From: Candidatus Kapaibacterium sp.
GTDB taxonomy: Bacteria; Bacteroidota; Ignavibacteria; Kapaibacteriales; UBA961
Reading direction: 5' to 3'
Length of the DNA stretch: 64,000 bases
NCBI GenBank assembly: GCA_017302855.1
Contig: JAFLBY010000001.1
Location: 9,208-73,207, forward strand
Positions 40,337 to 63,830 of this stretch are shown here, piece by piece (the stretch's first letter is position 1; every line of letters starts with the position of its first letter). The translations under genes were made by a program, and so were the position numbers. The notes beneath the pieces are model-generated. The model made no database searches. It had not been told where the DNA came from and worked only from the letters and a program-made list of their open reading frames with translations.

Positions 40337-40567
40337 CTACCTCACCACCATAAACAGAGCTTTTTGTCCTGTGGCGGGAATGCGTGCACAATACATACCT
40401 GTCTGCGATCTGCTTATGTCTATCGAATGTTCATATCCCTGATACATAAGCGAACCCTGCATATCGGCAATGAAGACCAAGGCATTATCTGTACCGGTAG
40501 GCGTGTGGTTGTGATGTGTTGGTATTTTAAACTTCTTGGTCATGGAGTTTGTTGGAATTAATTTCAA
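40337..40567 (-). pseudogene. Orphan T9SS C-terminal sorting-domain remnant (3' fragment of a disrupted secreted-protein gene)
   Basis: The 76-aa ORF ...ALVFIADMQGSLMYQGYEHSIDISRSQTGMYCARIPATGQKALFMVVR matches the T9SS CTD pattern. It has no upstream cargo domain, and its 5' end overlaps the STAND gene stop in another frame. Confidence 0.35.
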
Positions 40568-43500
40568 ACATCGATAACTCCAAGAAATTTATAAAACTTT
40601 CATAGAATGAATAGAAATTAGTTTCTATTTTATAATCATTTATAAGTTTCAGTGTGTTTCCGGGAAAAAAATACAAACTATGAAAATAGTTGATAGTGTT
40701 CACTTTTCCAACAATAGCATTAAATAAAATTGGTTTTATGCTTCTTTTAACTTCTTTTTTGGGAAACAACTGAAATAGTTTTAAATCCGACAACGAAGAG
40801 TGTAATCCATCAGAATAAGATGCTACTTCATCTGGCTTTAATTTCAGTTCGGAAATTATTTTTTTGTCATTTATAGTAAGTATTCCGTTGTTTAATCGTG
40901 ATTGACTATCTTGTCTGTATGAGTTGTTGTGATCTGAATATTCAGTATAAGGAATTCCAATGTTCTTAAGAGACTTTGTTTTTTTATTCCGTTTTGAAAT
41001 ACGAACTCTGAATTTGTTAACTTCTAATATGTCTCTAAACTGATTACATCTATTTGAACTGAGAATGTTTTGAATATCATTAAAATCTATTTGCCTATCA
41101 TATATGTTATGTTGAAGTAATCTTTCTATTGATAGATTAAAAATACTATCTGGAAAACAGTTAATATGATTTGTAGGTAAACTAAACCAAGATACTTCTA
41201 ATTTGTTAATATCAAAATACTTTACCAAGATGTCAATTATACTCGTGGAATGTTGTTCAATATATTCTTCTAAAAGATGACGTACTCCCTTTTCTGATAA
41301 AGTCTGAATAGATGCTATTAGTTTAATAGATTCTATTTCTTTAACAAGACCCTTTTCTTCAAAAACTGAAAGTATGGTGGGGATAAATAGAACAGAATAA
41401 TCCTTTCTTTGATAGTATTTTGTCCAAAAAGTAGAAATGCTCGAGATATCAATGGTTTTATTTAAATGCAAGTTCAGACGAATATAATTTAATATTTCAA
41501 TCCATAAGTCAAAACTACCCAATTGACTGTTTTTAATGATAAAGTCTGCTAGTGATAAATTTAAGTAATCGTTTGTTCTTGCAACATGGCCAAGTGCCAG
41601 TATGTTGCGTCTCGCATCTTTTAATATAGACTTTGCAAATGCAGCGGGAATACGTTTCTTTTCAAGAAATTCTCGTAAATATAATAAGGACTCTTCATCT
41701 TCAGTATAAAAGTATTTATTAATAGTCATTTTTAAGTCTAAATAATCAGATTGTAGTTTTTCGTGGATGAATAAATTTTCCAACACAAAGGTCATTTTTT
41801 CGACGAATTCATAGTTGTCGTTAGATTCTATCAAAGCTTCAATTTCTATATTAGATAGTGCAGATTTGTGTGCGTTAAAAAAGGTATCTTCTTTTGTTGT
41901 TTCGTCTAATAAATTTTCAAAAAAACTGTTTGTATTATAATGGTCATTACTAGAAAGATTAAGCAACAATGAGATATTCCCCGTTTTAATAAAGTAAAAC
42001 ATACCAAAAAGATAGTCTGAGCTTGTAAAGTCTTTCTCTGTATATCCATGAAATAACAATGATTTTATATAGGTGTATAAAAATTTATTGTTAGTTGAAA
42101 TATAATCCCTTGATATTATATTGATAATTAATGATAAATCATAATAATCTTTCACATCTAAATCATTGGGTGAAAGTTCAAACAATGATCCTCTAAGTTG
42201 TCCATAGAATGATTGGATAGCCTCAAAATCTACAGTACCACTAACAAGAACTTTAAACTCAGAAATGTTTGAGAATCTGAGAATGATTTCTCGTTTCATT
42301 TCCATATCTAGATAGAAGAAATCAAACCTTGTAAGAAATGCAACTTCTGAGTTAAGGATTGAGTTGTAAACAATCATTTTTACTGTCTTTTGTCGTTCAG
42401 AATAATCAATGTTTTGGTTACGTAAATAAGTATTAAAGCTGTCGTGCAATAAAGAAACTCTGTTTAGCTTCTTTTCAAATAAATAAGGGTACTCACTTAT
42501 AAATTCTGAAACACTAACTCCTAATTCTTTACCTAAAAATTTTTCTATTTCATGGTGCATGATAAAAGAACGACAACAAAGAAACAATGTCAATAAAGAT
42601 TTTGTGTTTACCTTGTCTTTAAAAATTTCATCATAATACTCGTCTATAGTCTTTAACGTATTTAATTCAGGTAGATTGTTGTGTTCTTTATAATGTTCTG
42701 CCAAATATTTGACTAAAATAGGATAACCATCTGTAATCGAATATATGCGACTACAAACATCGTAATCGGTAATGTGAAAAAGTTTATCAAGAACCTTTTT
42801 TGTTTGCTCCTTGTTCCAATTAATAAGTTCATGTTTACTCCACTCCCATTGATGTTTCAATGGTCTGGTTAAAACTATTGTTTTACACTTTGTTTGTAAT
42901 TTTTGGATAAAGTCAATGATTTTTTTTAACTCTTTGCTATCGTAGTTTTCAACGTGGTCAATCCCGTCAATTATGACTATTTTGTTTACCTCCCATAATT
43001 TTGATAAAACTTCATTCTCATTCCTGTTAACTTGATCATTAAACAGTTTCTTCGAAAAGTCAAAGATAAAATTTGAAAACTTTAGCCTTTGATTATACTC
43101 TTTATCTTGGCTTGAAATCCAAAATCTGTAAATTATATTGTTTGGATATTCTTGAGTCAGACTATTGACAAGATGGCTTTTGCCAACTCCAGGTTTGCCT
43201 TCTATTACTATAATATTTTCAACAAATAGATGATTTCTTCCGACATCAATTGTTTGTTCGGTCAAATTGGTATCGAAAACGAGAATTGTTGGCAAATCCT
43301 TTCTCGCTATTCTAAATTTCCGCTCATCTAAACATGAATTAAAAAATCTGTTTATAATAAGTTCCCTTTCTTGGTTCAAATTGTATAAATTGGAAATTCT
43401 CTCATCAACATTTTCTCTGTTTAAAGAAACAATGTAAACATTGTTTGAAATATATGCAGGAATTCCGAATATTTCACAATTTGGCGAAATCTCGATTTGT

Positions 43501-43781
43501 TTAAAAAATATAATATTAGTGAATTGTGACAATAAATGTTTTTTGTTTTTTATAATTACTGAGTTTTCTTTGAATCGAAGAGAGTTAAGAGAAATGTCAT
43601 CAATATCTTTAATCTGGATGCAAAATTTTTCGTTAGTAGATGTTACTATTAAATCATCAAAGTGATTGTTAGCGTTTACTTCCATTTCAATTGAATCAAT
43701 ACTACGTTCAACATCCATTTTTGCTAAAAACAAAGATGTTATTTGTTTTTGATATGTGTATCCTGTATAAGCGTTTTTCAT
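40527..43781 (-). CDS. STAND-class P-loop NTPase (NACHT/NB-ARC-like), Avs-like candidate antiviral sensor: N-terminal PD-(D/E)xK-like domain plus long C-terminal helical-repeat region
   Basis: Walker A GKPGVGKSHLVNSL, Walker B KIVIIDGIDHV and TIVLTRP motifs. ~190-aa N-terminal domain with FDDLIV...EKFCIQIK (D...QxK). ~700-aa alpha-helical C-terminal half. Confidence 0.7.
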   Translation of the reverse strand: MKNAYTGYTYQKQITSLFLAKMDVERSIDSIEMEVNANNHFDDLIVTSTNEKFCIQIKDIDDISLNSLRFKENSVIIKNKKHLLSQFTNIIFFKQIEISPNCEIFGIPAYISNNVYIVSLNRENVDERISNLYNLNQERELIINRFFNSCLDERKFRIARKDLPTILVFDTNLTEQTIDVGRNHLFVENIIVIEGKPGVGKSHLVNSLTQEYPNNIIYRFWISSQDKEYNQRLKFSNFIFDFSKKLFNDQVNRNENEVLSKLWEVNKIVIIDGIDHVENYDSKELKKIIDFIQKLQTKCKTIVLTRPLKHQWEWSKHELINWNKEQTKKVLDKLFHITDYDVCSRIYSITDGYPILVKYLAEHYKEHNNLPELNTLKTIDEYYDEIFKDKVNTKSLLTLFLCCRSFIMHHEIEKFLGKELGVSVSEFISEYPYLFEKKLNRVSLLHDSFNTYLRNQNIDYSERQKTVKMIVYNSILNSEVAFLTRFDFFYLDMEMKREIILRFSNISEFKVLVSGTVDFEAIQSFYGQLRGSLFELSPNDLDVKDYYDLSLIINIISRDYISTNNKFLYTYIKSLLFHGYTEKDFTSSDYLFGMFYFIKTGNISLLLNLSSNDHYNTNSFFENLLDETTKEDTFFNAHKSALSNIEIEALIESNDNYEFVEKMTFVLENLFIHEKLQSDYLDLKMTINKYFYTEDEESLLYLREFLEKKRIPAAFAKSILKDARRNILALGHVARTNDYLNLSLADFIIKNSQLGSFDLWIEILNYIRLNLHLNKTIDISSISTFWTKYYQRKDYSVLFIPTILSVFEEKGLVKEIESIKLIASIQTLSEKGVRHLLEEYIEQHSTSIIDILVKYFDINKLEVSWFSLPTNHINCFPDSIFNLSIERLLQHNIYDRQIDFNDIQNILSSNRCNQFRDILEVNKFRVRISKRNKKTKSLKNIGIPYTEYSDHNNSYRQDSQSRLNNGILTINDKKIISELKLKPDEVASYSDGLHSSLSDLKLFQLFPKKEVKRSIKPILFNAIVGKVNTINYFHSLYFFPGNTLKLINDYKIETNFYSFYESFINFLELSMFEINSNKLHDQEV

Positions 43782-46974: not shown

Positions 46975-47910
46975 CTATAGCGATTGAGATTTCAGACTTT
47001 CAATCATCGTCCTGATACCTTGTTTCGGAGCTGTGGCAGTGATGCCGAAACGTTGCTCAAATTTGGAACTGTCGAACATATAATCTTGCTCATATTGATA
47101 CATCATCTCAGGAAACTCTTTCAAAGAAGGAATAAATATCCCAAGCATTTTTATCATCCATAATGGCAAGTGTTGAATATCGGGTTTGACTTGCAGTTCT
47201 TCCGCTATAAGGTGAATCCATTGCAAAGTAGTTAAACATTCTTTTGTTGTCGGCACATGCCATACTTGATGAAAAGCATCGGGAGTATTGCCAAGTAAAG
47301 CTGTTGCCTTTGCCGCATCGGGCGTATAAGTAAAGGTATGGATTTTATTGACATTGCCAAAAGACTGTGCCTTTTTCCCTTTCAGCAAATTATCAACCAC
47401 CATAATACGAAGAGCACTGGTTTTATTGTCGGGTCCATAAAAATCGGCAGAGCGAGCAATTAATGCATTAAGAGAATTGTTCTCTACCTCTTTCATAATC
47501 ATTTCATGAATCCGCTGCCGTATCATACCTTTTTTGCTTGGAGCATTGATGGGTGATGTTTCCACCATGTGCGGTATAGCGGATGAGTCATACATATAGA
47601 CATTATCAAAAAACACCAGCTTTGCATTATGGTTTTTGCATGCCTGAATAACTGCTTGCATAAATGGAACCCATATTTGTTCCCACACATGCAATCTATA
47701 CTCAAAACCAACAGTTACATACACAATCTCACTGCCTGCCACTGCTGAGTCAATACTGTTTGTATCATGAAGATCGGCGGGATATAATTCATCCGAGTCA
47801 TTTACTTTTTGGGGCTTTCTGCTTACTAATCTGATATGGGGAGTGTAATGAGATAACTCTTTTGCTAAAGGTATGCCGATAGCACCGCCTGCACCGAGTA
47901 TTGTTTGCAT
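46975..47910 (-). CDS. NAD-dependent epimerase/dehydratase-family (SDR) protein
   Basis: MQTILGAGGAIGIPLAKEL Rossmann start; 311 aa. Confidence 0.6.
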   Translation of the reverse strand: MQTILGAGGAIGIPLAKELSHYTPHIRLVSRKPQKVNDSDELYPADLHDTNSIDSAVAGSEIVYVTVGFEYRLHVWEQIWVPFMQAVIQACKNHNAKLVFFDNVYMYDSSAIPHMVETSPINAPSKKGMIRQRIHEMIMKEVENNSLNALIARSADFYGPDNKTSALRIMVVDNLLKGKKAQSFGNVNKIHTFTYTPDAAKATALLGNTPDAFHQVWHVPTTKECLTTLQWIHLIAEELQVKPDIQHLPLWMIKMLGIFIPSLKEFPEMMYQYEQDYMFDSSKFEQRFGITATAPKQGIRTMIESLKSQSL

Positions 47911-47969
47911 ATATAGTCCTTACTATGTGAAATTATTAACTGTCAGAATCCCGAAAAGATATATAATCC

Positions 47970-49034
47970 TTAGGCTTCAATCAATTCATTTACTTCTTCA
48001 TTCATTACTTCTTCATTCATTACTTCTTCATTCATTACTTCTTCATATACACAACTGTTTACCAAAGCATTTGCAATGTGCCACATTAAGACAGGTGGAA
48101 CAGCATTGCCAATTGCTCTGTATTGTCTATTCTCTGAAACACTGTCTAACGTAAATGTTAGCGGAAAAGATTGAATGTTTGCTGCTTCTCTTGGTGTAAA
48201 TCTTCTGTAACGTTCACCAACCATTAATACAGGGTCCGTTCCATTCAAACTGACTTTTGCAAGATGTGCACTGATTGTGTTACAGGGCTGTTCTAAATCT
48301 TGTACTCGTCCTTTGTTCATCTTTTCTCTTACTCGCAACATTCCATCAATGGCTCTTTGGCTGAAAAACCATTTTTCATCTTTGTGAGCTTCTTTATCAA
48401 TAACCTGTTTTAATTTTACTTTTGAACCGTTCAATGTGTTTGGTCTTGGAAATCTAAAATTAAAATAATCGTCAAAATCTCTGAAGCCAACAATAAAAAT
48501 GCGTTCGCGTTTTTGAGGAATACCAAATTCTGACGCATTTAACAGCTTAAAATGAATGTGATAACCTGCTTTCTCAAATTCGTTTACAATCATAGGGAGT
48601 GCTTTTCCTTTGTTTGCAGAAAGTAAACCTTTAACATTTTCTCCAATGAAAAAACGTGGCTGTTTTTCTTTCAGAATTTTTACCATCTCAAAAAACAATT
48701 TTCCTCTATCGTCTTTGTAGCCTAATCTGGGTGGGTTCTGTGCACTGATAGAAAATGATTGACAAGGAAAACCACCTAACAGAATATCGTGGTCAGGAAC
48801 TTCGTTTGGTATGATAGCTCTAACGTCTTTTATCTCACATTTATGCTCAAAATTATCGTTGTAAATTTTTGTTGAGTAACTATCGTTATCGACGGCATAC
48901 ACAACCTCAAAAGGTAAGGCAGCGTAATGATTGTCAAGAAAATCGAAATTTCCTTGAATACCTAAATCCATTCCTCCACAACCACAGAAAAGAGATGAGA
49001 CCTTTAATTTGTTATTTCCAGCAGTTTGTGCCAT
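47970..49034 (-). CDS. DNA (cytosine-5)-methyltransferase (M2 of the RM operon) with a C-terminal EEVMN peptide-repeat tail
   Basis: Motif I LFCGCGGMDLG, motif IV GGFPCQSFS, ENV motif. C-terminus (EEVMN)x3-4. Confidence 0.85.
   Translation of the reverse strand: MAQTAGNNKLKVSSLFCGCGGMDLGIQGNFDFLDNHYAALPFEVVYAVDNDSYSTKIYNDNFEHKCEIKDVRAIIPNEVPDHDILLGGFPCQSFSISAQNPPRLGYKDDRGKLFFEMVKILKEKQPRFFIGENVKGLLSANKGKALPMIVNEFEKAGYHIHFKLLNASEFGIPQKRERIFIVGFRDFDDYFNFRFPRPNTLNGSKVKLKQVIDKEAHKDEKWFFSQRAIDGMLRVREKMNKGRVQDLEQPCNTISAHLAKVSLNGTDPVLMVGERYRRFTPREAANIQSFPLTFTLDSVSENRQYRAIGNAVPPVLMWHIANALVNSCVYEEVMNEEVMNEEVMNEEVNELIEA
47985..48050. repeat. 15-bp tandem repeat (ttcattacttcttca, 3 perfect copies plus 1 variant) at the 3' end of the methyltransferase gene
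   Basis: Seen directly; in-frame, 5 aa per unit. Confidence 0.6.
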
Positions 49035-50446
49035 TGTCCTGATATTTTAGAAAATTCAACAACTAAGTTTTTATCAACTTTTAAATTACCTAATTTGAAT
49101 TGTTTAAATGGGTTTTGAATAATAAAGATGTTCTTGCTCTTATCGTTAATTACCAAGTAATAGACAAAATAACTGTCCCCTAATGTTTCTGCACTGTCCC
49201 ATTCGTTAGGCGTGAGTTTGAAACGATTATTGTTAATTGCTTTTCGTGATTTAGTTGTTTTTACTTCAATATATCGTTTTTTTTGAGGTATTTCGATACT
49301 TTGTAGGTCATATCCAACACCAAGAGGTGTCGGGATTTTGTTTATTAAGTGTTGACGGTTTGAACCACCTCTTGTTCTCAAATATTCATGTGCTAAAATT
49401 AACGTTTCACCATAATCCCCAAATATTTTTGTAGGTACTTTTCTATCTCCTTTGATGCGTGAGTAATACTCTTGAATAAGAGTAGATATGTTCTGTACTT
49501 CTTGTTCTTCTAAATGAGGGGCAAACGCTTCAATATTATCAAAGTTATTTACATAATCAAACCAAAGCTCTTCTAGTTTTCCAATTTCAGAATTTTTTGT
49601 TTCTTCTTCTAAATTGTAATATCTGTCATACTCACCAAACCATGTATTGTTTTGCAAGTGAAAGTTAATTGCTTCTATGTTTTTGTGATTCAGATAATAA
49701 TAATAACCTGTTCCTTTATGGTGCAAAAGATTGGCTAAAACCATGTAATCCAAAATGTCGCCAGCGTACCGATTAGTATCACCTTTTGATGGAAATTCGC
49801 CTGTTCGTTCGTTTCTTAATGCTTCGTAATTATATTCGTATTCCACTTTGTCTTTTCTGTTCTCTAGAATGAGATTTACAACTTCGTTTGCTTGCCTTTT
49901 TCCTGTTGTAACTCGAAGGTCGAAGTAAGCGCATTGCGTGAGTTCTTCTACTGTTAAGCTAAATGGTTTTCCTGTAATTTTTTCTCCCTCAACAAATAAA
50001 TTAAGTATGAATTGACAAGGTCTAAATTTTATACCAGCTTCAATTTGCTTAATTGTATTTTGAGATTTAATGTGTCCACCTGGGTATTGAAATGAAAACA
50101 AAAAGTAATTAAAAAATTCATCCAAATATTGATTGTTTGCAAGCCTCTTTGCTGTTAAGCCGGGTTCGGAGAAACCGTTCTTTTCTTGAATAAAACCAAA
50201 CAACGCTGAAATTTCAGTCCGCCAATTATCTATTGTCTTTTGTGCTGCTGTTGTGTTTTTTTTAAAACCAAACAATACCTTGTTTAATTCATTTTTAAAA
50301 TTGTTTTTTGATAAAACGGGCATTTCTGAAATTGTTGTTGCTACATACAATAAAACTTCTTCTACGTCATTTTTGAAACGTGGTCTTACATGATGTAATC
50401 TAAAAAAATACTCATCAGGTATTCTGTATGATTTTATTCTGCTCAT
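49004..50446 (-). CDS. Putative type II restriction endonuclease (C-terminal DUF3883-like PD-(D/E)xK domain)
   Basis: 480 aa. C-terminal ...GYDLQ...KKRYIEVKTTKS...FKLTPNEW...YFVYYLV is a D...EVK nuclease core. Sits between two m5C methyltransferase genes with overlapping start/stop. Confidence 0.5.
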   Translation of the reverse strand: MSRIKSYRIPDEYFFRLHHVRPRFKNDVEEVLLYVATTISEMPVLSKNNFKNELNKVLFGFKKNTTAAQKTIDNWRTEISALFGFIQEKNGFSEPGLTAKRLANNQYLDEFFNYFLFSFQYPGGHIKSQNTIKQIEAGIKFRPCQFILNLFVEGEKITGKPFSLTVEELTQCAYFDLRVTTGKRQANEVVNLILENRKDKVEYEYNYEALRNERTGEFPSKGDTNRYAGDILDYMVLANLLHHKGTGYYYYLNHKNIEAINFHLQNNTWFGEYDRYYNLEEETKNSEIGKLEELWFDYVNNFDNIEAFAPHLEEQEVQNISTLIQEYYSRIKGDRKVPTKIFGDYGETLILAHEYLRTRGGSNRQHLINKIPTPLGVGYDLQSIEIPQKKRYIEVKTTKSRKAINNNRFKLTPNEWDSAETLGDSYFVYYLVINDKSKNIFIIQNPFKQFKLGNLKVDKNLVVEFSKISGQWHKLLEITN

Positions 50447-51480
50447 AAGTATTTCATAATTTCATTTGCTAACACAGCTGCTAATATTGGAGGAACAGCA
50501 TTGCCTACCTGTTTGTATTGGCTCGTTTTACTTCCTAAAAAAATGAATGAATCTGGAAAGGATTGTATTCTCGCACTTTCTCTAACAGTAGGCACACGAT
50601 TGTATTTGTAATGAAAATGATGTCTGTGTCCTGTGTCAATAGTAAAACTTGGCTTCTTGCTGTTTAGTCTCGTCCAAGCAATATTTACATTCCTTGTTTT
50701 TCGTAATTCTTTAGGCAAGTCTTTATAGTTTCCGCCATCGGGAACTAATGAAATAATATGTGTTGTTTGCTCACTATGGTTAGTTGTTTCGTGATTGTAA
50801 ATACCCTTTGACCCTTCTCTAATTAATCTTTGATAATGAGATTTAGGTTTAGTTGTATATTTTGTCCCGTTTTCTAACGAATTTTTAGGCAAATCTGAAA
50901 TTGCATCTTTCGTATTTATAGGGGTTTTAGTTGTTGGTTCTGGGAAAACAAACTCTTTGTTGCTCTTTGTTCCAATAAAGAAAGCACGTTTTCTATTCTG
51001 CGGAACTCCATAATCAGAGGCTAATAAAATTTTGTAAACTACGGTGTAACCAAGTTTTTCAAAATCACTGAGAATTGTCTCTTTTACAATACCTTTTCCC
51101 ATAGAAATAATGTTTGGCACATTTTCCATTACAAACGCCTTAGGCTTGTAAAAACTAACAAAACTCAAAAATGATTTGTAAAGTTGATTGCGCTCGTCAT
51201 CAATTATTCTTTTTCCTGCAATAGAAAAACCTTGACAAGGAGGACCTCCAATAATCACATCTATACTTTTTATTCCTGTTTTTTTTGAAATTTCTTTCGC
51301 TGTCTCCGTAAATAAATCGGCTACAATTCCTTTTGCATTTTTGTGAGTGTTTTCAAAAGTTACAATCGCATCTTTCCAATTGTCAATTCCCAAAAGTACA
51401 TCATAGCCAGCTTCGATGAATCCATAAGAAAGTCCACCGCAGCCACAAAACAAGTCTATTACTGTTGGCTTCTTTTTCAT
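50443..51480 (-). CDS. DNA (cytosine-5)-methyltransferase (M1 of the RM operon)
   Basis: IDLFCGCGGLSYGF, GGPPCQGFSIAGKR and ENVPN motifs. Confidence 0.85.
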   Translation of the reverse strand: MKKKPTVIDLFCGCGGLSYGFIEAGYDVLLGIDNWKDAIVTFENTHKNAKGIVADLFTETAKEISKKTGIKSIDVIIGGPPCQGFSIAGKRIIDDERNQLYKSFLSFVSFYKPKAFVMENVPNIISMGKGIVKETILSDFEKLGYTVVYKILLASDYGVPQNRKRAFFIGTKSNKEFVFPEPTTKTPINTKDAISDLPKNSLENGTKYTTKPKSHYQRLIREGSKGIYNHETTNHSEQTTHIISLVPDGGNYKDLPKELRKTRNVNIAWTRLNSKKPSFTIDTGHRHHFHYKYNRVPTVRESARIQSFPDSFIFLGSKTSQYKQVGNAVPPILAAVLANEIMKYL

Positions 51481-51499
51481 TTTCTAACTTGATAATGTC

Positions 51500-51808
51500 T
51501 CATTTTGTGTTCATATTCTTCAAATAGTTTACCTTTTCTTCTGCAACCACCAATGTTTCGGTAGGGCAGTTATAAGCATACATCTTTTTTGCAAATTGAT
51601 CTCCAAAATATTCAATCTTTAATCTTTCAATATCAAGACTAAAAACTATTGCTAATTTGGTTAATCGCTTTTCGTCAAACTCTCTCTTCCCATTTTCGAT
51701 TTTGCTAAGATTTGCAGAATCAAGGTCAAGACGGAATGCAAGTTGCGTTAAAGTCAAGCCATTGTCTGTTCTTAGTTTCTTGATGTATTCACCAAAAGTT
51801 GCCTTCAT
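51500..51808 (-). CDS. XRE-family HTH regulator, candidate RM controller (C) protein
   Basis: FGEYIKKLRTDNGLTLTQLAFRLDLDSANLSKIENGKR HTH_3. First gene of the C-M-R-M operon. Confidence 0.6.
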   Translation of the reverse strand: MKATFGEYIKKLRTDNGLTLTQLAFRLDLDSANLSKIENGKREFDEKRLTKLAIVFSLDIERLKIEYFGDQFAKKMYAYNCPTETLVVAEEKVNYLKNMNTK

Positions 51809-51826
51809 AAGATTATACCTCGAAAC

Positions 51827-51843
51827 TTGTCAATCATTGACAA
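51827..51843. promoter_or_regulatory. 17-bp palindrome TTGTCAAT-C-ATTGACAA 19 bp upstream of the controller gene (candidate C-box operator)
   Basis: Seen directly; perfect inverted repeat around a single central base. Confidence 0.45.
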
Positions 51844-52002
51844 ATTTAACAATAGTTTTTGGTTAAACAATCTCTATTGATTCTGCTCTCCTGTGTTCTA
51901 TCACCTATGTTTGTCTAACTGTGCTGTTCTTTCGGATGACCAATCTATTCATATTATACCCCTCAATAACCATTTGCCCCAGAAAGCGGCTCATTTCTAT
52001 TA

Positions 52003-52096
52003 TCCATCGGAAGAAATAGGGCTTTGTTTCGGTCATCTTCGCCGCCAATCGGAAGAAAAGTAGTTTCGTTTCGGTCATCTTCGCCGCCCATCGCCT
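52003..52096. repeat. Imperfect ~44-bp direct repeat x2 (core tttcggtcatcttcgccgcc)
   Basis: Seen directly. Confidence 0.5.
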
Positions 52097-52242
52097 TGTA
52101 TGAATCAGATTCTCTTTTGTATAGGGTAAAAAGGGGCTGAGATATATCGAAAATGCAATGAGATGAGGCAAAGTTTTGGCTTTATGAACCGAAAACTGCC
52201 TGTTTTGCCCTAAAAACGCGGAAAGTTGTATAAGAAATGGCG

Positions 52243-52557
52243 GTTTCCTGCTCAATTCAAGTGGTTTCCTGTTCAATTCAAGTGGTTTCCTGTTCAATTC
52301 AAGTGGTTTCCTGTTCAATTCAAGTGGTTTCCTGTTCAATTCAAGTGGTTTCCTGTTCAATTCAAGTGGTTTCTTGCTCAATTCAAGTGGTTTCCTGTTC
52401 AATTCAAGTGGTTTCTTGCTCAATTCAAGTGGTTTCCTGTTCAATTCAAGTGGTTTCCTGTTCAATTCAAGTGGTTTCCTGTTCAATTTAAGTGGTTTCC
52501 TGTTCAATTTAAGTGGTTTCCTGTTCAATTTAAGTGGTTTCCTGTTCAATTTAATGA
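52243..52557. repeat. Tandem array of about 14.5 copies of a 21-bp unit (ggtttcctgttcaattcaagt) with a few point variants (cttgctc; caattta)
   Basis: Seen directly. The array is head-to-tail with no spacers, so it is not a CRISPR array. Confidence 0.9.
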
Positions 52558-52796
52558 GGTTTTGCAGCATCCGATGAAGGTTTTGATACATTTCATTCGC
52601 TCTTTATGGTATATGGTCGAGGTTTTTGTGTATCCGAGAGGGGCTTCAGGGCATTTGTCTGCGTTTTTTATGAATATGATTAAGAAGATTCCTCACACAA
52701 TGCGGTTTTTTGTGCATTTGAGCGGAAGGATGAGCCATTCGTTGCAAGAGTTTGTGCATCCGAAGCAATCGTTATTGCTTGTTTTGATGTGTTTTG

Positions 52797-62372: not shown

Positions 62373-63830
62373 ATGATTGAGAATTACGAAGCTATAATAG
62401 GATTAGAGGTACATGCGCAATTGCTGACGGCAACAAAAGCATTCTGTCGTTGTTCAACATCCTACAGTTTATCGCCGAATGCCCATACTTGTCCCGTATG
62501 TCTTGGGCTTCCGGGTGCATTGCCTGTATTGAATCGTAACGTAGTGGATTATGCAATCAAAATGGGGCTTGCAACCCATTGCTCTATACGAGAGTATTCG
62601 GTGTTTTCGCGTAAGAACTATTTCTATGCGGATTTACCGAAAGGATACCAGATATCGCAGTATGAAGATCCGATTTGTCATCATGGATATATAGACATAG
62701 AAGTGGGTGAAGAAGGCGCGACCAAACGCATTGGTATTACCCGTATTCACATGGAAGAGGATTCCGGGAAATCAATCCATGATGTTGATATTGATACCCT
62801 TGTTGATTTGAATCGCAGTGGTGTTCCGCTTATAGAAATTGTGAGTGGGCCTGACATGCGAACGGCACGGGAAGCATATCAATATCTCAATCAAATACGA
62901 CAGATTGTTATGTATTTGGGGATTTGTGACGGAAATTTAGAAGAAGGCTCTTTGCGCTGCGATGCGAATATCTCGGTGAGAAAAAAAGGTGCGACCGAGT
63001 TTGGAACTAAGATAGAAATCAAAAATCTTAATTCATTTCGTAATGTAGAAAAAGCCATAGAATACGAGATTAAGCGACAAGTTGAAGCAATTGAACAGGG
63101 TGAAATATTAACGCAGGAAACGCGAATGTGGGATGCGGGGACACATCAAACGAAAAGTATGCGTTCCAAAGAATTTGCGCATGATTATCGTTACTTCCCT
63201 GAGCCGGATTTGGCGGGAGTAAATGTGACGGATGCAATGATTGAGAATATTGGCAATACAATGCCGGAGTTGCCACTTGCTCGCAAGAAACGCTTTGTGA
63301 ATGAATATGGGTTGCCGTGGTATGATGCCGGCATTCTTACTGAATCACAACACTTAGGGACATACTTTGAAGAATGTTGTCAATCATTGACTCAGCAAAC
63401 AAAAGACCGCTATAAATTGGTGAGTAATTGGATTATGACAGAGGTGTTGCGATATCTTTCCGATAAAGGGGTTGGTATCGAACAGTTTCCTGTTACATCT
63501 TCATATATTGCCGAACTTGTAGAGCTTTTTGCGGCAGAGTTGATAAGCAGTAAGATTGCAAAGGATATATTTCCGGAGGTGATTGCCGGTGAATCACCCA
63601 AGAGTGTTGTCGAGCGCAAGGGATTGCTGCAAATTTCCGATGAAAGTATTATACTTGCAGTCGTTGAGAAAATTCTTGCAGAGCAAACCGACAATGTAAC
63701 AAAATATCACGAAGGCAAAAAAAATCTGTTTGGACATTTTGTCAGCTCGACTTTGAAGGAGTTGGGAGGAAAAGCAAACCCAAGAATTGTAACAAAATTG
63801 TTGCAAGAACGGCTACAAGAGGTAAAGTAA
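62373..63830 (+). CDS. gatB: Asp-tRNA(Asn)/Glu-tRNA(Gln) amidotransferase subunit B
   Basis: MIENYEAIIGLEVHAQL...CPVCLGLPGALPVLN; full-length GatB. Confidence 0.9.
   Translation: MIENYEAIIGLEVHAQLLTATKAFCRCSTSYSLSPNAHTCPVCLGLPGALPVLNRNVVDYAIKMGLATHCSIREYSVFSRKNYFYADLPKGYQISQYEDPICHHGYIDIEVGEEGATKRIGITRIHMEEDSGKSIHDVDIDTLVDLNRSGVPLIEIVSGPDMRTAREAYQYLNQIRQIVMYLGICDGNLEEGSLRCDANISVRKKGATEFGTKIEIKNLNSFRNVEKAIEYEIKRQVEAIEQGEILTQETRMWDAGTHQTKSMRSKEFAHDYRYFPEPDLAGVNVTDAMIENIGNTMPELPLARKKRFVNEYGLPWYDAGILTESQHLGTYFEECCQSLTQQTKDRYKLVSNWIMTEVLRYLSDKGVGIEQFPVTSSYIAELVELFAAELISSKIAKDIFPEVIAGESPKSVVERKGLLQISDESIILAVVEKILAEQTDNVTKYHEGKKNLFGHFVSSTLKELGGKANPRIVTKLLQERLQEVK

What the first reader, a model, noticed from the sequence alone, without database searches (positions are those of the whole stretch)
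47970..51843. C-M-R-M type II restriction-modification operon with two m5C methyltransferases and a palindromic C-box
Four overlapping minus-strand genes make up the operon. The first is an XRE-family HTH regulator. The second is an m5C methyltransferase (FCGCGG, PCQ, ENV). The third is a 480-aa protein with a C-terminal DUF3883-type PD-(D/E)xK (D...EVK). The fourth is another m5C methyltransferase. Two methyltransferases flanking one endonuclease often accompanies asymmetric (type IIS-like) recognition sites. A 17-bp near-perfect palindrome TTGTCAAT-C-ATTGACAA sits 19 bp upstream of the HTH gene, which is the classic position and shape of a controller-protein operator.
Basis: partly seen in the sequence, partly recalled or inferred. 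Interest (0 to 1): 0.5.

Follow-up and report, generated by a model that had tools for sequence, protein, structure and literature searches.

The report
BpuJI-type restriction-modification operon with controller
This is an ordinary, horizontally acquired bacterial anti-phage restriction-modification gene cassette of the already characterised BpuJI type (one DNA-cutting enzyme, two protective cytosine methylases), preceded by a small regulator gene with its own conserved palindromic binding site.

Summary
Window 47970-51843 (minus strand) holds four co-directional genes. They are a 102-aa XRE/HTH_3 protein, a 345-aa m5C methyltransferase, a 480-aa nuclease and a 354-aa m5C methyltransferase. 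A perfect 8+1+8 palindrome ends 18 nt before the HTH start codon.

Its N-terminus matches Pfam BpuJI_N (E 2.4e-114) and the BpuJI recognition-domain structures 2VLA/5HLT. Its C-terminus matches NOV_C/DUF3883 and carries the YD...EVK triad that is catalytic in BpuJI. The published BpuJI system has the same M-R-M layout.

The cassette is a low-GC island in a Candidatus Kapabacteria MAG. It recurs at 64-85% endonuclease identity across Bacteroidota and in Pasteurellaceae.

The palindrome is a real operator. TTGTCA-N5-TGACAA sits at the same position in 56 of 76 distinct upstream regions, with 22 different spacers. It travels with the HTH gene in front of at least five unrelated kinds of R-M system. 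It overlaps the Bacteroidota-type -7 box and the predicted transcription start, so I infer autorepression of the whole operon.

The recognition sequence is unknown.

Verdict: a new member of a known kind, of low interest.

The parts
51868..51870 (-). Predicted -33 element (TTG) of a Bacteroidota-type sigma-A promoter, 19 nt upstream of the -7 box
   Evidence: the only TTG-N19-TAnnTTTG combination on the minus strand of the cassette. TTG is conserved at this position in the consensus of 76 distinct upstream regions.
51841..51848 (-). Predicted -7 box TAAATTTG (consensus TAnnTTTG). Its last three bases are the first three of the operator.
   Evidence: TA..TTTG conserved. PMC9723704 places TAnnTTTG at -12 to -5. 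The motif is about 4-fold enriched on the sense strand upstream of this host's genes.
51827..51843 (.). Operator (C-box): perfect palindrome TTGTCAAT-G-ATTGACAA. The conserved core is TTGTCA-N5-TGACAA. It spans about -7 to +10 of the predicted transcription start (about 51836) and ends 18 nt before the ATG.
   Evidence: unique exact copy; exact arms at the same position in 56 of 76 distinct upstream regions with 22 different spacers. Same spacing to the ATG in all.
51812..51817 (-). TATAAT hexamer 3 nt before the start codon. It is specific to this window and replaces the T.CAAG element conserved in relatives. Significance unknown.
   Evidence: consensus ...TTaaaattTaCAAG.aaATG versus window ...TTTCGAGGTATAATCTTATG.
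51500..51808 (-). Controller (C) protein gene, 102 aa. It has an XRE/HTH_3 domain (residues 9-61) plus a C-terminal extension of about 40 aa.
   Evidence: HTH_3, E 9.8e-11. (PADLOC HTH_VI 9e-12, Control_protein 4e-7). (best solved relative C.AhdI, E 2.5e-4). (73-89% identical copies head several kinds of R-M system).
50443..51480 (-). M1, a 345-aa C5-cytosine DNA methyltransferase. Its stop codon overlaps the R start (ATGA).
   Evidence: PF00145, E 1.2e-76, profile 2-324/324; TIGR00675.
49004..50446 (-). R, a 480-aa BpuJI-family restriction endonuclease
   Evidence: (PADLOC REase_II, residues 12-454, E 8e-25), (2771 relatives; annotated only as 'DUF3883 domain-containing protein').
49559..50428 (-). 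R N-terminal DNA-recognition domain (residues 7-296, BpuJI_N; two winged-helix subdomains in BpuJI)
   Evidence: PF11564, E 2.4e-114. (2VLA/5HLT, E 5e-15 with the single sequence, 2e-18 with the profile). BpuJI N67 aligns with invariant N74. BpuJI Q208 aligns with invariant R226.
49124..49384 (-). R C-terminal PD-(D/E)XK nuclease domain (residues 355-441, NOV_C/DUF3883). Candidate catalytic residues are E347, D380, E394 and K396.
   Evidence: PF13020, E 7.6e-13. (positions). (all invariant in 36 homologues). PMC1874659: BpuJI YD348...E367VK369 is catalytic by mutagenesis.
47970..49034 (-). M2, a 354-aa C5-cytosine DNA methyltransferase. Its start lies 31 nt inside the R gene. It is only about 30% identical to M1.
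   Evidence: PF00145, E 1.9e-74; M1 versus M2 cross-hits of 28-31%.
47984..48046 (-). 15-bp tandem repeat (4.1 copies) encoding the lineage-specific EEVMN tail of M2, beyond the catalytic domain
   Evidence: Homologues align only to residue about 338.

Best explanation
This is a horizontally acquired type IIS restriction-modification operon of the BpuJI family, headed by a controller (C) protein gene.

Shown:
- The gene content and domain content.
- Homology of R to BpuJI over both domains, with intact catalytic residues.
- Conservation of the four-gene cassette across many Bacteroidota.
- Conservation of the palindrome upstream of the C gene.

Inferred mechanism:
- One Bacteroidota-type promoter (TTG-N19-TAAATTTG) drives C, M1, R and M2 as one transcript. 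M1/R and R/M2 are translationally coupled through overlapping stop and start codons.
- M1 and M2 each methylate a cytosine on one strand of a short asymmetric site.
- By analogy with BpuJI, R is a dimer. Its N-terminal winged-helix domain reads the unmethylated site. This releases the autoinhibited C-terminal PD-(D/E)XK domain (E347, D380, E394, K396), which cuts nearby DNA.
- The C protein binds as a dimer to TTGTCA-N5-TGACAA. The half-site centres are 11 bp apart. The site covers the -7 box and the predicted transcription start.
- C therefore represses its own operon. Expression is high on entry into a naive cell and is then throttled to a low steady state.

The recognition sequence is not known. 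CCCGT, the BpuJI site, is the only precedent. The recognition domains have diverged, and one of the two known DNA-binding residues differs (Gln to Arg).
For: Domains:
- HTH_3; PF00145 twice, full length; BpuJI_N E 2.4e-114; NOV_C E 7.6e-13.
- PADLOC REase_II covers R residues 12-454.
- the only solved relatives are the BpuJI recognition-domain structures.

Published BpuJI system (PMC1874659):
- bpuJIR is flanked by two m5C methyltransferase genes.
- The site is CCCGT.
- The YD...EVK triad is catalytic.
- The C-terminal domain is autoinhibited until cognate DNA is bound.
- The triad is present and invariant here.

Cassette:
- 13 of 15 genome loci have C-M1-R-M2 in the same order with the same overlaps. 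R is 73-84% identical in those 13 loci.
- GC is 0.31-0.36 inside the cassette against 0.39-0.52 in the flanks.
- an Acinetobacter plasmid keeps M-R-M at 36% R identity.

Operator:
- the arms are exact in 56 of 76 distinct upstream regions, 22 different spacers occur, and the 18-nt distance to the ATG is fixed.
- the same C and operator module (73-89% identical) precedes 27 window-like cassettes, 2 distant BpuJI-like cassettes, 26 other m5C systems and 16 non-m5C cargoes. Examples of the other cargoes are Eco57I/MmeI-like, NgoFVII-like and AlwI-like.
- four loci with a 35%-identical C carry a different palindrome, AATCA-N5-TGATT.
- PMC2632904: known C operators typically end 17-18 nt before the start codon, and single-palindrome classes exist.

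Promoter:
- this is the only complete promoter match on the minus strand of the cassette.
- the -7 box lies at -12 to -5. The start therefore falls near 51836, at the palindrome centre.
- the motif is enriched upstream of host genes.
Against: - There is no biochemical evidence for any step.
- The R recognition domain matches BpuJI only distantly (E 5e-15 over about 275 residues). Q208 of BpuJI, which is needed for DNA binding, aligns with Arg226, so specificity cannot be transferred.
- CCCGT is not avoided in the host (53 observed, 46 expected).
- The C protein resembles solved C proteins only weakly (C.AhdI, E 2.5e-4).
- No second operator is present. The proximal T.CAAG element conserved in relatives is missing in this window, so regulation here may differ.
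- Promoter and transcription start are predictions. Use of TAnnTTTG by a Kapabacteria host rests on 12 hits in 43 upstream regions.
- The AlphaFold model of R was too poor (pLDDT 48.5) to confirm the nuclease fold.
- If all four genes share one repressible promoter, it is unclear how restriction is delayed relative to methylation at establishment.
Confidence: 0.75

Rival explanations
1. The gene content is the same, but the C protein works as in the classical C.PvuII, C.AhdI and C.Esp1396I circuits. The C mRNA is leaderless. Binding at the palindrome first activates a weak promoter located just upstream of the ATG. A second, weaker site then represses it, which delays expression of the downstream genes.
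For: - The operator ends 18 nt before the ATG. This is exactly the spacing reported for leaderless C genes (PMC2632904).
- In this window a TATAAT hexamer lies 3 nt before the ATG.
- In some relatives a TAnnTTTG-like box lies 7 nt before the ATG (L009, L013).
- Relatives have a second conserved ACAAG element 14 nt downstream of the right arm. It could be a weak second site.
Against: - For a start at the ATG, the palindrome centre would lie at about -27, between the -33/-35 and -7/-10 elements. That is a repressing position, not an activating one.
- No conserved second palindrome lies upstream.
- The TATAAT is unique to the window. It is too close to the ATG (3 nt) for a start at the A.
- The proximal box is present in only a minority of relatives.
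- A complete TTG-N19-TAnnTTTG promoter is conserved further upstream.
- Leaderless mRNAs are rare in flavobacteria (5.5%).
Confidence: 0.15
2. The cassette is an inactive remnant, or only a methylation module. R is no longer a functional restriction enzyme, and the methyltransferases persist as orphan or epigenetic enzymes.
For: - R-M cassettes of this family do decay. The R gene is frameshifted in L022 and L023.
- The host shows no avoidance of CCCGT.
- The 5' leader of the window copy has diverged from the family consensus.
Against: - All four ORFs are intact and full length relative to their Pfam profiles.
- The catalytic residues E347, D380, E394 and K396 and 170 other positions are invariant across 36 homologues.
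- The promoter and operator are intact.
- The identical protein is found in at least 20 assemblies.
Confidence: 0.07
3. The HTH protein is a generic XRE repressor, such as an antitoxin or a prophage-type regulator, that merely sits next to the R-M genes. The palindrome is then incidental promoter sequence.
For: - HTH_3 is a very broad family.
- The NCBIfam hits are to RstR, HipB and similar families, all far below their cut-offs.
- Similarity to solved C proteins is weak.
Against: - Of 71 loci carrying a 73-89% identical HTH gene with enough downstream sequence, 55 have an m5C methyltransferase gene downstream.
- Four of the other 16 loci were sampled. They hold Eco57I/MmeI-like, NgoFVII-like or AlwI-like R-M genes immediately downstream on the same strand.
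- The palindrome arms are conserved while the spacer and flanks vary.
- A divergent C variant has a different palindrome.
Confidence: 0.03

Closest known systems
BpuJI restriction-modification system of Bacillus pumilus RFL1458 (type IIS, 5'-CCCGT; Sukackaite et al. 2007, PMC1874659; recognition-domain structures 2VLA and 5HLT)
   Same: - The endonuclease has the same two-domain build: a BpuJI_N recognition domain plus an AHJR-like PD-(D/E)XK domain with a YD...EVK triad.
- The endonuclease gene is flanked by two separate m5C methyltransferase genes.
- The DNA-binding residue N67 is conserved as N74.
   Different: - The recognition domains match only distantly (phmmer E 5e-15).
- BpuJI Q208 is replaced by an invariant Arg, so the target sequence may differ.
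- A C gene and operator precede the cassette here. Whether BpuJI has one is not stated in the paper.
- The host is a Bacteroidota-related Kapabacteria MAG, not a Bacillus.
Controller (C) proteins of type II R-M systems: C.AhdI (1Y7Y), C.BclI, C.Esp1396I, C.PvuII; single-palindrome classes C.EcoRV and C.EcoO109I (motifs 7, 8, 10 of Sorokin et al. 2009, PMC2632904)
   Same: - It is a small XRE-type HTH protein encoded at the head of an R-M unit.
- A palindromic operator lies upstream of its own gene and ends 18 nt before the start codon.
- The module is portable between unrelated R-M systems.
- The best solved-structure match is C.AhdI.
   Different: - The match to C.AhdI is weak (E 2.5e-4).
- The protein is longer (102 aa), with a C-terminal extension of about 40 aa.
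- There is one palindrome instead of the paired OL/OR boxes with a GTG spacer.
- The operator overlaps a Bacteroidota -7 box and the transcription start, which predicts repression only.
- The gene directly downstream is a methyltransferase, not the endonuclease, so C controls M and R together.
RptR, a small repressor at the head of type I R-M / DarTG defence islands in Gammaproteobacteria (PMC12255303)
   Same: It is a precedent for a small regulator that acts purely as a repressor of the promoter of a whole R-M operon. It is conserved together with its binding site.
   Different: No relationship to RptR was tested here, and RptR was not named among the solved-structure matches listed. Its binding site differs (TAGCTA direct repeats). 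It is associated with type I systems.

Membership tests
BpuJI family of type IIS restriction endonucleases | N-terminal BpuJI-type DNA-recognition domain (two winged-helix subdomains) | tested here: met
   PF11564, E 2.4e-114, residues 7-296 over profile 1-278/278. 2VLA/5HLT at E 5e-15 with the single sequence and 2e-18 with the profile.
BpuJI family of type IIS restriction endonucleases | C-terminal AHJR-like PD-(D/E)XK nuclease domain with catalytic YD...E-V-K | tested here: met
   PF13020, E 7.6e-13. Y379-D380...E394-V395-K396 are present and invariant in 36 homologues. The motif is defined by mutagenesis in PMC1874659. The fold itself is not confirmed because the AF2 model was poor.
BpuJI family of type IIS restriction endonucleases | Endonuclease gene flanked by two separate m5C methyltransferase genes | tested here: met
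   The same arrangement is reported for BpuJI. It is kept in 15 genome loci and in one plasmid at 36% identity.
BpuJI family of type IIS restriction endonucleases | Recognition of an asymmetric site (CCCGT for BpuJI) and cleavage at variable positions nearby | not testable with these tools
   Only indirect hints are available. N67 is conserved, Q208 is changed to Arg, and CCCGT is not avoided in the host.
R-M controller (C) proteins | Small XRE-type HTH protein encoded within, and co-directional with, an R-M gene cluster | tested here: met
   (HTH_3); close homologues head at least five kinds of R-M system.
R-M controller (C) proteins | Conserved palindromic operator (C-box) just upstream of its own gene, typically 17-18 nt from the start codon | tested here: met
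   TTGTCA-N5-TGACAA lies 18 nt from the ATG. The arms are exact in 56 of 76 distinct upstream regions with 22 spacers. The spacing norm comes from PMC2632904.
R-M controller (C) proteins | Two adjacent dimer sites (activating OL, repressing OR), as in C.PvuII-like motifs 1-4 | tested here: not met
   Only one palindrome is conserved. Relatives have a possible weak proximal half-site, which is absent from the window. This places it with the single-palindrome classes, not the C.PvuII-like class.
R-M controller (C) proteins | Detectable sequence relationship to characterised C proteins | tested here: inconclusive
   C.AhdI is the best PDB hit but only at E 2.5e-4. C.BclI and C.Esp1396I are at about 0.009. 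PADLOC Control_protein models score 4e-7 to 1e-4.
R-M controller (C) proteins | Binds the operator and regulates R-M transcription | not testable with these tools
   This needs EMSA or footprinting and reporter assays.

The most novel reading that the evidence does not exclude
Two readings remain open.

First, the C and operator pair may be a portable regulatory module adapted to Bacteroidota. Its operator is built into the -7 box and transcription start of the phylum-specific sigma-A promoter. It would then act only as an autorepressor of complete R-M operons, methyltransferases included. This control logic differs from the activator-repressor, endonuclease-delaying circuits that define textbook C proteins.

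Second, the Bacteroidota branch of BpuJI-like enzymes, with Arg in place of BpuJI Gln208, may recognise a site other than CCCGT.
Probability: 0.45. Interest if true: 0.3.

Novelty: new member of a known kind. Interest (0 to 1): 0.15.

Why it matters
The value is mostly for annotation. NCBI labels this endonuclease and its many relatives only as 'DUF3883 domain-containing protein' or 'NO VEIN domain-containing protein'. It is in fact a BpuJI-type type IIS restriction enzyme with two cognate m5C methyltransferases.

The comparative data also define a widespread controller and operator module in Bacteroidota. Its operator is TTGTCA-N5-TGACAA, overlapping TAnnTTTG. The module could be used to recognise R-M systems and to predict their regulation in this phylum.

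If the specificity differs from CCCGT, the family could supply a new type IIS specificity. None of this changes current understanding of R-M biology.

Tried and rejected
1. AlphaFold2 of R with 36 homologues gave pLDDT 48.5 and pTM 0.31. This is too poor for fold searches. The homologues available to the tool are all at least 69% identical.
2. A profile search of PDB with that alignment found nothing for the C-terminal domain.
3. K-mer avoidance in the 59 kb of host DNA shows no depletion of CCCGT (53 against 46) or CCCGC (45 against 45), and no clear asymmetric 5-mer candidate. The target site could not be inferred.
4. Literature and supplement searches for CCCGT/BpuJI methylation data in microbiomes, and for FauI (CCCGC, Flavobacterium aquatile; a lead from memory only), gave nothing usable.
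5. I looked for an 'empty site' in sister strains. All Logan contigs break at the tandem repeats that flank the cassette, so no insertion junction could be defined.
6. There are no flanking direct repeats, tRNA genes or Rfam families at the cassette borders.
7. A 28-nt inverted repeat links the promoter region and the C coding region (23/28 in the window). It is only weakly kept in 74 homologues (mean 13.8/28 against a background of 8.6). I treat it as not established.
8. A 15-nt identity with the operator lies inside gatB (63377). It is explained by the codons Cys-Gln-Ser-Leu. The same 12-mer arises from the PCQSF motif of M2. I treat it as chance.
9. The sigma-70 promoter scan found no more sites than in shuffled sequence, and no terminators.

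Full report
**What is there.**
The minus strand of window 47970-51808 carries four co-directional ORFs.
- C: 51808-51500, 102 aa.
- M1: 51480-50443, 345 aa.
- R: 50446-49004, 480 aa.
- M2: 49034-47970, 354 aa.

M1/R overlap by 4 nt (ATGA) and R/M2 by 31 nt. C and M1 are separated by 19 nt, so 'four overlapping genes' is slightly overstated. The palindrome lies at 51843-51827. It reads TTGTCAAT-G-ATTGACAA on the coding strand, is a perfect 8+1+8 palindrome, and ends 18 nt before the ATG.

**Identity of the proteins.**
- Pfam gives HTH_3 for C (E 9.8e-11) and full-length C5-cytosine methylase profiles for M1 (1.2e-76) and M2 (1.9e-74).
- For R it gives two domains: BpuJI_N over residues 7-296 (E 2.4e-114) and NOV_C/DUF3883 over residues 355-441 (E 7.6e-13).
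- A PADLOC type II restriction-enzyme model covers residues 12-454 of R.
- The only solved relatives are the BpuJI recognition-domain structures 2VLA and 5HLT. They score E 5e-15 with the single sequence and 2e-18 with a family profile.
- In the BpuJI paper the endonuclease gene is flanked by two m5C methyltransferase genes, and the enzyme recognises 5'-CCCGT. Its C-terminal domain is a PD-(D/E)XK nuclease related to archaeal Holliday-junction resolvases. The YD348...E367VK369 triad is essential. The domain is autoinhibited until the N-terminal domains bind cognate DNA (PMC1874659).
- The window protein has Y379-D380...E394-V395-K396 and an upstream E347. All are invariant in 36 homologues.

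**Distribution.**
- The R protein is 100% identical to a protein of a Candidatus Kapabacteria MAG annotated only as 'DUF3883 domain-containing protein'. There are 2771 relatives at E<=1e-5, and the top 120 are all 69-85% identical. They come from Flavobacterium, Elizabethkingia, Sphingobacterium, Chitinophagaceae and others.
- In 15 genome loci the M1-R-M2 core is syntenic with the same gene overlaps.
  - Nine loci carry a 72-89% identical C gene.
  - Four carry a 34-36% identical C variant.
  - Two Pasteurellaceae loci and one Cytophagales locus have no C.
  - R is frameshifted in two loci.
- An Acinetobacter plasmid keeps M-R-M at 36% R identity.
- In the window the cassette has GC of 0.31-0.36 against 0.39-0.52 in the flanks. 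This fits horizontal acquisition.
- By 2008 the BpuJI family already had 73 REBASE members (PMC2441816).

**The palindrome is an operator.**
- A metagenome scan with the C protein returned 80 further loci.
- Across 89 loci, which give 76 distinct upstream sequences, the consensus is aaaAaaa.TTg...aa.tAAAA.atTT...TAaaTTTGTCAat.ATTGACAAGTTaaaattTaCAAG.aa-ATG.
- The arms TTGTCA/TGACAA are exact and at the same position in 56 of the 76. Twenty-two different 5-nt spacers occur. This is the pattern expected of a dimer-binding site with half-site centres 11 bp apart.
- Seventy-one loci have enough downstream sequence to classify:
  - 27 have the window-type cassette.
  - 2 have a distant BpuJI-like R.
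  - 26 have other m5C methyltransferases, for example a fused m5C/Eco57I-type methylase.
  - 16 have cargo without an m5C hit. Those sampled include Eco57I/MmeI-type fusion enzymes, an NgoFVII-like PLD nuclease and an AlwI-like nuclease.
- The regulator and its site therefore move together between unrelated R-M systems. This is the hallmark of C proteins.
- The four loci with the divergent C variant carry a different palindrome of the same geometry, AATCA-N5-TGATT.
- The 18-nt gap to the start codon equals the typical spacing reported for C operators. Single-palindrome C-box classes are known (PMC2632904).
- The best solved relative of the protein is C.AhdI, but only at E 2.5e-4.

**How it probably works (inference).**
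- The conserved TTG and TAnnTTTG elements, 19 nt apart, match the Bacteroidota sigma-A promoter. Its -7 box occupies -12 to -5 (PMC9723704).
- In the window this is TTG 51870-51868 and TAAATTTG 51848-51841. It is the only complete match on the minus strand of the cassette.
- The motif is about four-fold enriched upstream of host genes, with 12 sense hits against 5 antisense hits in 43 upstream regions.
- The predicted start, near 51836, is the centre of the palindrome, so the operator spans about -7 to +10.
- I therefore favour simple autorepression of one C-M1-R-M2 transcript. The classical low-C activation followed by high-C repression of a C-R unit seems less likely. The latter remains a rival (15%) because of the leaderless-type spacing and a window-specific TATAAT 3 nt before the ATG.
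- A pure-repressor precedent at the head of R-M operons exists in RptR (PMC12255303).

**Specificity.**
- The target site is unknown.
- BpuJI N67 and Q208 are required for DNA binding (PMC9240713).
- In the alignment they correspond to invariant N74 and invariant R226. One contact residue is kept and one is changed.
- Host k-mer statistics show no avoidance of CCCGT.
- Two m5C enzymes imply a cytosine on each strand of the site.

**What failed.**
- The AlphaFold model was poor.
- The profile search found no PDB hit for the nuclease domain.
- No insertion junction, flanking repeat, tRNA or Rfam element was found.
- An apparent promoter/coding inverted repeat and an operator-like 15-mer in gatB do not hold up.

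**Verdict.**
This is a BpuJI-family type IIS R-M operon with a controller protein and a conserved single-palindrome operator. It is a new member of a known kind. Interest is low. The modest open points are the recognition sequence and the repression-only, promoter-embedded operator logic in Bacteroidota.

Noticed in passing
window 40527-43781 (-): A 1084-aa NACHT/AAA (STAND-like) ATPase ORF lies in a 27-30% GC island and has no PADLOC hit. In sister-strain contigs (L106-L109) the same slot after the GDP-mannose dehydratase gene holds a 418-aa Shedu (SduA_C) gene instead. This looks like a variable defence slot.
   Followed up: partly
window 52242-52551 and 52006-52093: A 21-bp tandem repeat (14.8 copies, 96% matches) and a 42-bp repeat (2.1 copies) lie just upstream of the cassette promoter. 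They have no Rfam match. All short-read assemblies of this organism break here. Function unknown.
   Followed up: partly
window outside 47900-52650: Several palindromes are strongly under-represented in host DNA. GGCC is 10 observed against 184 expected, GATC 166/357, CTAG 24/133, CATATG 4/41 and GTATAC 0/20. This suggests pressure from other R-M systems.
   Followed up: no
L113 4595-5757, L114 1979-3177 (sister strains; equivalent to window about 53720): Sister strains carry Vsr (very-short-patch repair) and HNH_2 genes between cysS and the DUF2520 gene. They are absent from the window. The neighbourhood varies between strains in m5C-related genes.
   Followed up: no
L009 about 650-760, L011, L012, L016, L018, L022, L026-L032, L047 (88-98 nt upstream of the C start): A conserved C/A-rich non-coding element of about 150 nt ends in CCCACCCACCACCC. 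It precedes the C promoter in 14 of 93 loci from several genera and with both C variants. It occurs as a single copy per locus, has no tRNA or Rfam match, and is absent from the window. In L012 it lies between two R-M cassettes.
   Followed up: partly
window 51863-51836 vs 51665-51638: A 28-nt inverted repeat (23/28) links the promoter/operator region and the C coding region. It is only weakly kept in homologues (mean 13.8/28 against a background of 8.6).
   Followed up: yes
window 63377-63393 (+), inside gatB: TTGTCAATCATTGAC, 15 nt identical to the operator, lies within gatB codons Cys-Cys-Gln-Ser-Leu-Thr. It lacks the right arm. It is most likely a coincidence at the codon level.
   Followed up: yes
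window 47984-48046: A 15-bp tandem repeat adds an EEVMN x3 tail to M2 beyond its catalytic domain. The repeat is in frame, so it is not a frameshift switch. Homologues lack it.
   Followed up: partly
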